Positions 11,724-14,700 of a stretch of 64,000 bases of DNA are shown here, piece by piece (position 1 is the first letter of the stretch; the number at the start of each line of letters is the position of its first letter). This DNA is from Hormiphora californensis (lineage: Eukaryota > Animalia > Ctenophora). The translations under genes and the position numbers were made by a program. The DNA lies in NCBI GenBank assembly GCA_020137815.1, contig CM035353.1, positions 2,046,001-2,110,000 of the forward strand. The letters are read 5' to 3'. The notes below the pieces were generated by a model. It saw only the letters and a list, made by a program, of their open reading frames with translations, ran no database searches and was not told where the DNA came from.

Positions 11724-14700
11724 TTAATCTATACCGTGTGCAAATATCAGCACCATACCGGGGGATCGGACGAATTCTCTGTCCATATGATTGTTCTCAG
11801 CTGCCAGGACTACCACGGCCTGCTTACCTGGGACCCGCCTTGTCACGTACTGCTCGTAGCAAACACGGTTCACCTGTCACAAAGAGATGTGTGTTTTGTA
11901 ATAACTGTCTCATATCAAGGCTGTTGAGGCAACGAGGCCACTAACCTGTCTCATTTCAAGGCTGTTGAGGCAACGAGGCCACTAACCTGTCTCATTTCAA
12001 GGCTGTTGAGGCAACGAGGCCACTAACCTGTCTCATTTCAAGGCTGTTGAGGCAACGAGGCCACTAACCTGTCTCATTTCAAGGCTGTTGAGGCAACGAG
12101 GCCACTAACCTGTCTCATTTCAAGGCTGTTGAGGCAACGAGGCCACTAACCTGTCTCATTTCAAGGCTGTTGAGGCAACGAGGCCACTAACCTGTCTCAT
12201 TTCAAGGCTGTTGAGACAACGAGGCCACTAACCTGTCTCATTTCAAGGCTGTTGAGGCAACGAGGCCACTAACCTGTCTCATTTCAAGGCTGTTGAGGCA
12301 ACGAGGCCACTAACCTGTCTCATTTCAAGGCTGTTGAGGCAACGAGGCCACTAACCTGTCTCATTTCAAGGCTGTTGAGGCAACGAGGCCACTAACCTGT
12401 CTCATTTCAAGGCTGTTGAGGCAACGAGGCCACTAACCTGTCTCATTTCAAGGCTGTTGAGGCAACGAGGCCACTAACCTGTCTCATTTCAAGGCTGTTG
12501 AGGCAACGAGGCCACTAACCTGTCTCATTTCAAGGCTGTTGAGACAACGAGGCCACTAACCTGTCTCATTTCAAGGCTGTTGAGGACAACGAGGCCACTA
12601 ACCTGTCTCATTTCAAGGCTGTTGAGACAACGAGGCCACTAACCTGTCTCATTTCAAGGCTGTTGAGGCAACGAGGCCACTAACCTGTCTCATTTCAAGG
12701 CTGTTGAGGCAACGAGGCCACTAACCTGTCTCATTTCAAGGCTGTTGAGGCAACGAGGCCACTAACCTGTCTCATTTCAAGGCTGTTGAGGACAACGAGG
12801 CCACTAACCTGTCTCATTTCAAGGCTGTTGAGGCAACGAGGCCACTAACCTGTCTCATTTCAAGGCTGTTGAGGCAACGAGGCCACTAACCTGTCTCATT
12901 TCAAGGCTGTTGAGACAACGAGGCCACTAACCTGTCTCATTTCAAGGCTGTTGAGGCAACGAGGCCACTAACCTGTCTCATTTCAAGGCTGTTGAGACAA
13001 CGAGGCCACTAACCTGTCTCATTTCAAGGCTGTTGAGACAACGAGGCCACTAACCTGTCTCATTTCAAGGCTGTTGAGACAACGAGGCCACTAACCTGTC
13101 TCATTTCAAGGCTGTTGAGGCAACGAGGCCACTAACCTGTCTCATTTCAAGGCTGTTGAGGCAACGAGGCCACTAACCTGTCTCATTTCAAGGCTGTTGA
13201 GGCAACGAGGCCACTAACCTGTCTCATTTCAAGGCTGTTGAGGCAACGAGGCCACTAACCTGTCTCATTTCAAGGCTGTTGAGGCAACGAGGCCACTAAC
13301 CTGTCTCATTTCAAGGCTGTTGAGGCAACGAGGCCACTTCTTTTCGTGAGCACAGTCCATTAGATCATTCAGAAGACGGGTAGGACAACCAGACTCCTGA
13401 AAGATGAAGAATGAAGAAATAAAATACTTTTTAAATACTATACAGGTATAAGAAGGTTTTTTCACTCGAACAATCTTGACTCTTGTCTTTGATAAGAACC
13501 CTCTTTTCCGGCCGTGCTGTTCTATTCTCCTGGGTAAGAGACCTAAAATTTGGTGATAATAACCCAGCCATGTTCATTTTGAAAGAAATATGGGGCCCTG
13601 CTGCAGGGAATTCATGTGGTCTGTGCAGGAGTCTGGGATTTATAGGTTTCAAAATTTTCAGTCTGGAATTTATAGGTTCCAACATTTTCAGTCTGGGATT
13701 TAAAGGTTCCAAAATTTTCAGTCTGGGCCCAGCTGGGATTTAGGTTTCAAAATTTTCAGTACACGTGACGTTACTTTAGGTTCAGAAATTTATTGAATAC
13801 AGTTGTCTCGTGCTGCAGAAGTTCTAGGCTACAGAGATGCAGGGACTGCAATGCAGCAGAGGATCTAATGTTCTACAGCTTCGAACAAACCTAATAAAGT
13901 GGCCTCGTGTTAGGAACCGACCGAATCAGGAAATACTGATCCCTGATCGGCTGATAACCAGTCACGTGACCTGAATAACGATTTCTGATTGGTTTCGGTC
14001 GGTTCCTGTGAAGAATAGACCGCGGAAGAGATTCGACAATAAGTCGACAATATTCTATGCTCTCAGATAAAATTCCTCCTAGCGCTGGTCGCTGAATTGT
14101 CCAGAAAGATAGAGAGCGAGTACCGACGATGAGAGAAAAAAAAAGAGAGAGATACAGAGCACTTGTTCTCTCTGCCTTTATAAAAGCATCACAGTGCAAC
14201 TTGGTAACACGAAAATTACCCTCTCCCTGAATTTAATGCGATAACAGACTTGATGGCAAATACTCATGACTCAGACTTGTAAAACCAGGGAATTTTATCG
14301 ACCTCTCTGACGTCACTGGAGGGAGTCCAGTAAAGGTTAGGTAGAGACTAGAGGTACCCTCTAAAAATGGGGGGGGGGGGGGGCCGGCTGAAGTTTTTGA
14401 AGTTTTTGAAGTCAACTTCAAAAACTTCAAAGAGAAACTTAGGGTGGAAAACTTCAAAAACTTCAAAAACTTCAAAAACTCATATCTCCTAAACCGTTGG
14501 AGATAGGCCCTATGTTGCTTCATAACTCGTATATAAACTCGAGGCCGCTGATGATTTTGGTGTCCATGTTTTTTTCACTACTCCCTTAATAAAAAATTTG
14601 CATTTTGTGAAACTGTGAAAAAGGGTGTGGCCCCAAAAAAAATTTTGAAAATTTACTTTATAATTTTTAAACACTTTCTTAGCATTTTCTAGGCAACTTT

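What the first reader, a model, noticed from the sequence alone, without database searches (positions are those of the whole stretch)
11874..13300. RNF41 intron that is about 98% copies of its own exon end
Seen: the 1427-bp intron has only ~31 bp of unique sequence before the acceptor. The rest is ~35 copies of the exon end plus GACAG|GTTAGT. An AGT microhomology between the exon (GAAGTGG) and the donor (GTTAGT) marks the duplication breakpoint, and the spliced junction is CAG|GTG, a protosplice site. Inference: either the intron was created by the duplication or a near-minimal intron was rescued by it. The spliceosome must pick the first of ~35 near-identical donors.
Basis: partly seen in the sequence, partly recalled or inferred. 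Interest (0 to 1): 0.75.

Follow-up and report, generated by a model that had tools for sequence, protein, structure and literature searches.

The report
Repeated splice donor in comb-jelly intron
In what is likely a comb jelly, the end of one RNF41 exon with its splice signal is copied 34 times into the next intron, a known kind of repeat of which splicing likely uses only the first signal; DNA from a second sample still carries an ordinary unique intron behind the repeats, so the repeats likely did not create the intron.

Summary
The array is real: RNF41 intron 9 (13300-11874, minus strand, 1427 nt) holds 34 GTTAGT donors (not 35) at 41-nt spacing plus 31 unique nt. The interpretation mostly fails. 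A DNA contig of another sample (X6) carries 157 unique nt behind the last copy, starting GTTAGTGG-like and ending at the same acceptor, and a contig of X1 leaves the window's tail for unlike sequence. So an ordinary intron existed first; the window allele lost about 126 nt of it, or the assembly did. Read-through ORFs of another ctenophore and four non-ctenophore-like clusters break at the same codon. It is a splice-donor minisatellite ('mirage' in amphioxus; F7 intron 7 in humans), likely born by microhomology-guided duplication and grown by slippage or unequal crossing-over. Only donor 1 gives the full 353-aa protein; donor choice was not observed. Twelve of 119 splice sites in the window's four spliced genes lie in such duplications (12 of 43 events against 4-5 expected), the only point of wider interest. 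The scan found this kind before on other DNA (sharks, marine invertebrates). New member of a known kind; interest 0.27.

The parts
13301..13396 (-). RNF41 exon 9 (ESGCP...LEMRQ); its last 38 nt (13301-13338) are the template of the repeat
   Evidence: Pfam PF08941 positions 99-130; gene model
13295..13300 (-). Authentic donor GTTAGT, the only one of 34 that gives the full-length protein
11905..13300 (-). 41-bp minisatellite: 34 intronic units, each GTT plus 38 nt of exon end; 33 further identical donors; last unit without a donor
11874..11904 (-). 31-nt unique tail with the acceptor; in sample S2 the unique part is 157 nt, in X1 at least 87 nt
11724..11873 (-). RNF41 last exon (VNRVCYE...HGID stop)
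11724..23870 (-). Whole RNF41/Nrdp1 gene, 10 coding exons, 353 aa
23152..23385 (-). RNF41 intron 2: 69-bp duplication of acceptor plus exon start (mirror case)
40508..41394 (-). XRN1 intron 12: 29-bp x30 array of exon end plus donor
26857..27786 (-). XRN1 intron 30: 47-bp x11 array of exon end plus GTAAGT donor, followed by a derived shorter array
4875..5856 (-). Choline-transporter-like gene, intron 6: 136-bp x7 array of acceptor plus exon start
52811..52919 (-). Aurora-kinase-like gene, intron 3: 48-bp duplication of exon end plus donor

Best explanation
This is a 41-bp minisatellite whose first unit spans the end of RNF41 exon 9 and its splice donor, and it likely grew inside an older, ordinary intron of about 157 nt rather than creating one. 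Likely order of events: (1) an old phase-0 intron GT..AG; (2) a tandem duplication of the last 38 exon bases plus GTT, likely guided by a short AGTGG-like match between exon and intron start; (3) expansion to tens of copies, likely by slippage or unequal crossing-over; (4) in the window's haplotype, loss of about 126 nt that held the old terminal donor and most of the unique intron (real allele or assembly error, about even odds). Splicing likely uses the first donor, as shown for human F7; any other donor would add a stop after VSGLVASTALK and cut off the last 49 residues. The extra copies are likely neutral. Shown: array, donors, ORF consequence, longer tail in other DNA contigs. Inferred: steps 2-4 and donor choice.
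For: Array anatomy. X6 (sample S2, study P2) 238-nt contig joins 11833-11885 to 11905-11944 with 145 letters between where the window has 19 (table 5), so 12+145 = 157 unique nt follow the last copy; the same contig aligns on to 13293 with 2 other letters and then runs into unique sequence, i.e. the last copy is followed by a GTTAGTGG-like donor. X1 (sample S1) contig follows the window to 11898 and goes on with 62 unlike letters. 157 nt is ordinary here: 60 introns, shortest 93, median 267. Old position: P0001, an ORF from a 476-kb ENA contig, is ctenophore-like over the last exon (46 of 50 with P0002) and has 92 unrelated residues ending PYQ before VNR; one JGI cluster has forms with and without VGQ at the junction (P0003/P0010 against P0011/P0012); 4 of 149 RNF41-like proteins examined stop at ETRQ-V and run into unrelated sequence, and are closer to non-ctenophore references. 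1 of 34 donors gives 353 aa, 33 of 34 give 315 aa. The same arrangement at 12 of 119 splice sites in 4 of 4 spliced genes. Known precedent.
Against: Donor choice was not seen in RNA of this allele. The letters of the X6 contig were printed only in part, so the ancestral donor and the microhomology are known to 7-8 of 8 letters, and the position of the mismatch is unknown. Intron presence in other species is inferred from translated read-through ORFs of unnamed records, not from aligned DNA; 114 of 149 homologues run on across the junction (cDNA or intron-less genes), so the shared position could be convergent. The last 8 nt of the intron match the exon end at 7 of 8, the highest of 59 introns, a faint direct repeat that an ancient duplication origin would predict; over the 15 positions used by Lehmann et al. 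the match is 6 of 15, with 7 introns higher.
Confidence: 0.85

Rival explanations
1. The duplication created the intron at a CAG|GT proto-splice site (Rogers-type gain).
For: Junction is CAG|GT; intron end matches exon end at 7 of 8 nt; 97.8% of the window intron is exon-derived.
Against: The unit holds no downstream-exon sequence and the tail does not resemble either exon (shuffle P 0.89-0.90). A 157-nt unique intron stands behind the array in S2. Other species break at the same codon. CAG|GT is shared by ctenophore cDNAs L001 and L002.
Confidence: 0.03
2. A near-minimal (about 32-nt) intron was rescued by the duplication.
For: Only 31 unique nt in the window; the tail begins TTATTA, one base short of a GTTA-type donor.
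Against: Shortest of 60 introns is 93 nt, so a 32-nt ancestor would lie far below the range. Haplotypes with the array and a longer tail exist in two samples, which puts the duplication before the loss of the tail.
Confidence: 0.03
3. The array tunes RNF41 level: distal donors make truncated or decay-bound transcripts in proportion to copy number.
For: 33 identical spare donors; donors 2-3 would leave the stop 5 and 46 nt before the last junction and donors 4-34 at 87 nt or more; second and third pseudo-sites are used in human 6-16 and CBS; no fold hides the donors (z +1.4).
Against: Similar arrays sit at 12 sites in four unrelated genes, which fits a mutational process; F7 pseudo-sites stay silent; amphioxus mirages do not disturb splicing.
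Confidence: 0.06
4. The array is an assembly artefact, inflated from a few copies.
For: The assembly has apparent 1-bp frameshifts in two XRN1 exons.
Against: Unit contigs are far deeper than flank contigs in five DNA runs of two studies: about 11 (X1), 63 (X2), 38 (X4), 24 (X5), 17-48 (X6) fold, my ratios; the tool warns that depth is no copy number. Two unit variants stand at 1950:850 in X4 against 25:9 in the window.
Confidence: 0.03

Closest known systems
Amphioxus 'mirage' minisatellites (Adh3, globins BflGb6/BflGb9, troponin C, PGBD5). Seen: passages of PMC3087553 and one passage of PMC3902484; Canestro et al. 2002 not held, known only through these papers
   Same: Head-to-tail copies of an exon-intron boundary, at donors and acceptors alike; several genes of one genome affected; edge copies diverged; unit size in the reported 10-160 bp range.
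   Different: Here in a likely ctenophore; 34 copies; one assembled haplotype lacks most of the unique intron; splicing outcome not tested here.
Human F7 intron 7 37-bp VNTR, and the 6-16, CBS, lamin B2 and PDGF intron minisatellites. Seen: PMC1557585 abstract, synopsis, introduction and first results sections, parts 1-2 of 6
   Same: First unit spans the exon-intron boundary, so identical donors follow the authentic one; similar unit length.
   Different: F7 unit is 4 nt exon plus 33 nt intron with 5-9 copies; here 38 nt exon plus 3 nt intron with 34 copies, so each spare donor has a full exonic context.
[quoted passage not shown] Seen: passages of PMC2891723
   Same: CAG|GT junction; exon-derived sequence inside the intron.
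   Different: The duplicated unit stops 3 nt into an existing intron and holds no downstream-exon sequence; the acceptor is not part of the unit; an older intron is identifiable.

Membership tests
Boundary-spanning minisatellite (mirage / F7-type) | Head-to-tail repeat whose first unit spans an exon-intron boundary | tested here: met
   Period 41, 34.9 copies, first unit 13298-13338 spans the donor
Boundary-spanning minisatellite (mirage / F7-type) | Splice signal reiterated inside the intron | tested here: met
   33 further GACAG|GTTAGT sites
Boundary-spanning minisatellite (mirage / F7-type) | Lies in an intron that has its own unique sequence | tested here: met
   157 unique nt in X6, at least 87 in X1; 31 in the window
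Boundary-spanning minisatellite (mirage / F7-type) | Copy-number polymorphism | tested here: inconclusive
   Depth ratios of 11-63 across runs are not allele lengths; the tail, not the array, was shown to vary
Boundary-spanning minisatellite (mirage / F7-type) | Edge copy excluded from homogenisation | tested here: met
   Last window copy carries a private change and no donor; inner copies differ only by one shared variant and two 1-bp insertions
Boundary-spanning minisatellite (mirage / F7-type) | Normal mRNA made from the first donor | not testable with these tools
   No RNA of this allele could be laid; only the ORF argument
Rogers-type intron gain by tandem duplication | Proto-splice site AG|GT at the spliced junction | tested here: met
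   CAG|GTG, but also in ctenophore cDNAs L001, L002
Rogers-type intron gain by tandem duplication | Intron begins like the downstream exon and ends like the upstream exon | tested here: not met
   No similarity above shuffles; 6 of 15 donor/acceptor identity, mean 3.8, 7 of 59 introns higher
Rogers-type intron gain by tandem duplication | Intron has the size of the duplication | tested here: not met
   Unit 41 nt; unique intron 157 nt in S2
Rogers-type intron gain by tandem duplication | No older intron at the position in relatives | tested here: not met
   P0001, P0003/P0010, P0115, P0124, P0130, P0131 point to an intron at this codon; inferred from protein records

The most novel reading that the evidence does not exclude
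In this comb jelly, splice sites are hotspots of local tandem duplication (about threefold over chance), and the arrays act as a ratchet: once exon copies pad an intron, its own unique sequence and old donor can be deleted, as in the window's RNF41 allele, leaving an intron that reaches spliceable length only through copies of its own exon.
Probability: 0.15. Interest if true: 0.62.

Novelty: new member of a known kind. Interest (0 to 1): 0.27.

Why it matters
As a single locus it matters little: donor-spanning minisatellites are described in humans and amphioxus, and this scan met them in other genomes. It extends the kind to a likely ctenophore (no such report in searches) and offers a natural test of first-donor choice with 33 decoys that each keep 38 nt of true exon context. 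The wider point is the excess of such duplications at splice sites in this window; if it holds genome-wide it would point to a link between splice-site position and local duplication, whose mechanism PMC3087553 calls unclear. For annotators: such arrays mislead aligners, which can place the exon end on the last copy.

Tried and rejected
No whole genome is held, so no genome-wide count. No RNA holder listed; this says nothing on expression. X8 (RNA guessed, same species label) gave one contig under 90% alike, spliced at the same CAG|GTG: a relative, so not used for donor choice. Positions 11899-11904 had no cover in X1, X5, X6, X8 and no loose end with the short tail was listed for X2, X4, X6, X7; a hole proves nothing, so this is not counted as evidence that the short tail is an artefact. 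X7 (share 0.04) covered only 13446-13603 of intron 8; no bearing. Two 14-nt motifs of the longer tails are absent from the window (0 matches each), so the missing piece is not misplaced nearby. The search for related loci gave 6 loci of 292 candidates: 4 apparently spliced cDNAs, one intron-less gene (L005) and one 5' fragment (L006); none shows this intron. Searches for an XRN1 homologue (0 of 6 candidates) and for short read-through ORFs of exon 9 (none) were empty, so XRN1, the transporter and Aurora models are hand-built; the donor of XRN1 exon 8 was dropped as uncertain (119 sites, 59 of 60 introns GT-AG). RNA structure masking of donors: not supported. Literature searches for a genome-wide excess at splice sites or microhomology-mediated duplication at splice sites gave nothing relevant; PMC3488318 gave only reference-list hits. 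No supplementary files were read; those of PMC3087553 hold mirage alignments that could refine the comparison.

Full report
Observation. The minus strand carries an RNF41/Nrdp1 gene: three exons match consecutive parts of PF08941, the last exon matches human RNF41 chains in the PDB, and ten exons from 23870 to 11724 join to an intact 353-aa ORF. The closest relatives found are ctenophore proteins; the cluster of P0002 holds named Bolinopsis microptera and Mnemiopsis leidyi records, with 40-42 of 49 identities over the last exon. I therefore call the source a likely ctenophore; a dispersed repeat in the window reminds me of Pleurobrachiidae, which is recall and untested. Intron 9 runs 13300-11874 (1427 nt, phase 0). 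It holds 34 units of 41 nt (two of 42), each GTT plus the last 38 nt of exon 9, giving 34 GTTAGT donors; the last unit has one private change and is followed by TTATTA instead of a donor, then 25 more nt to the acceptor.

The microhomology claim is circular in the window: bases +4 onward of each donor are the start of the next exon copy. Only the terminal copy can show what the old intron began with, and in the window that copy has no donor.

Other DNA of the same organism label settles the main question. Eight runs were listed, seven holding part of the stretch, in three studies. On 11760-11945, a 238-nt contig of X6 (sample S2, study P2) matches 11833-11885, has 145 other letters where the window has 19, and then matches one repeat unit (table 5). 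On 13285-13620 the same contig aligns to 13293-13338 with 2 other letters and then runs into unique sequence. So in S2 the last copy is followed by letters matching GTTAGTGG at 7 or 8 of 8 and a unique intron of 157 nt in all, ending at the same acceptor. A contig of X1 (sample S1, which may be the window's own source and is not independent) follows the window to 11898 and goes on with 62 unlike letters, a tail of at least 87 nt. Of 60 introns modelled in the window the shortest is 93 nt and the median 267: 157 nt is ordinary and 32 nt is far out of range. The simplest order is old intron, duplication guided by an AGTGG-like match, expansion, then loss of about 126 nt in the window's haplotype. 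Whether that loss is real is open: the samples are polymorphic here (exon variants in X1, X2, X6) and contigs drop variants, but the assembly also shows apparent frameshifts in two XRN1 exons. I put it at about even odds.

The array is not an inflation as far as rough depths go. Unit over flank contig depth, my ratios: X1 about 11, X2 63, X4 38, X5 24, X6 17-48 (138 against an upstream intron contig). The tool warns that such depth is no copy number; I take it only as 'many copies in both samples'. Two unit variants stand at 1950:850 in X4 and 25:9 in the window.

The position is old or at least shared. P0001, called on a 476-kb ENA contig, is ctenophore-like over the last exon (46 of 50 with P0002) and has 92 residues with no similarity to RNF41 in front of Q-VNR, as expected of a read-through intron. 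One JGI cluster has forms with and without VGQ at the junction, as expected of two nearby splice sites. Of 149 RNF41-like proteins examined from a search of 50%-cluster representatives (150 listed of 183 hits), 114 run on across the junction, 22 end near it, and 4 of these stop at ETRQ-V and continue with unrelated sequence; they score higher against non-ctenophore references. These are protein records without names, so the inference is indirect and convergence is possible. CAG|GT at the junction is also in ctenophore cDNAs L001 and L002, while L003-L005 read CAA/CAG then ATG or TTA.

Rogers-type gain fails its tests. By PMC2891723 (passages) such an intron has the size of the duplication and similar donor and acceptor surroundings. 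Here neither unit nor tail resembles the downstream exon (shuffle P 0.89-0.90); donor/acceptor identity is 6 of 15 against a mean of 3.8, with 7 of 59 introns higher. Against my reading, the last 8 intron letters match the exon end at 7 of 8, the best of 59; three of these are the required CAG.

How it works. Donor 1 gives 353 aa; each of the other 33 gives 315 aa, ending VSGLVASTALK, without the last 49 residues. No fold hides the spare donors (z +1.4). In human F7 a 37-bp VNTR reiterates the donor and only the most upstream working site is used, while in 6-16 and CBS the next two sites are also used (PMC1557585, parts 1-2 of 6). Amphioxus mirages do not seem to disturb splicing and are length-unstable (PMC3087553 and PMC3902484, passages). 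First-donor use here is inferred from these and from the intact ORF; it was not observed.

The pattern is general in the window. A scan for local duplications in the four spliced genes found 43 events; 12 cover a splice site (7 donors, 5 acceptors), in 4 of 4 genes, 12 of 119 sites. Random placement on the collapsed genic span expects 4.1-4.7 (P 0.0003-0.001). The models are hand-built, the window is one, and it was picked for holding such an array, so this is a lead.

Novelty. Searches found the human and amphioxus precedents and no ctenophore case or genome-wide excess; the library lacks most subscription journals. Earlier notes of this scan describe the same kind in shark and invertebrate genomes; they gave me the term mirage, and I checked the papers myself. 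Verdict: a new member of a known kind; interest 0.27. The boldest reading left open, splice-site hotspots plus a deletion ratchet, I put at 0.15.

Noticed in passing
window 45486-45377 and 44700-44450 (minus): Two XRN1-like exons change reading frame by one base within conserved sequence, and 44450-43800 reads like low-quality sequence where exons seem to be missing; likely assembly errors.
   Followed up: partly
window 26857-27279 (minus): Behind the 47-bp donor array of XRN1 intron 30 lies a second, shorter array that looks derived from the donor part of the first: a repeat born from a repeat.
   Followed up: no
window 32941-33132 (minus): An acceptor plus exon start is duplicated, and the upstream copy is cut off by an insertion of a dispersed element of about 100 bp that also sits in many introns of the window.
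   Followed up: partly
window 11661-11761 (minus): 47-bp duplication across the RNF41 stop codon; the second copy repeats the last codons in the 3' untranslated region.
   Followed up: no
window 2206-2622 and 3191-3288 (minus): Copies of the exon end plus donor of the transporter gene's last intron lie both next to the exon and about 700 nt further into the intron, split by unrelated sequence.
   Followed up: partly
window about 49040-51290 (minus): Long intron-less ORF, coiled-coil-like, between the Aurora-like and XRN1-like genes; not identified.
   Followed up: no
window about 57690-58530 (minus): Possible intron-less ORF inside otherwise repetitive DNA; not identified.
   Followed up: no
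window 14900-16250 and 55030-56420: A long inverted-repeat element of about 1.4 kb sits in RNF41 intron 8 and again near 55-56 kb; 163-bp satellite units at 19520-20096, 54213-54957, 56571-56877.
   Followed up: no
L005:1028-1993: An intron-less RNF41 gene in a 6-kb metagenome contig.
   Followed up: no
window 13331 (X2 contig): One haplotype has a silent change in the exon copy that the array units lack, so exon and array have begun to diverge.
   Followed up: no
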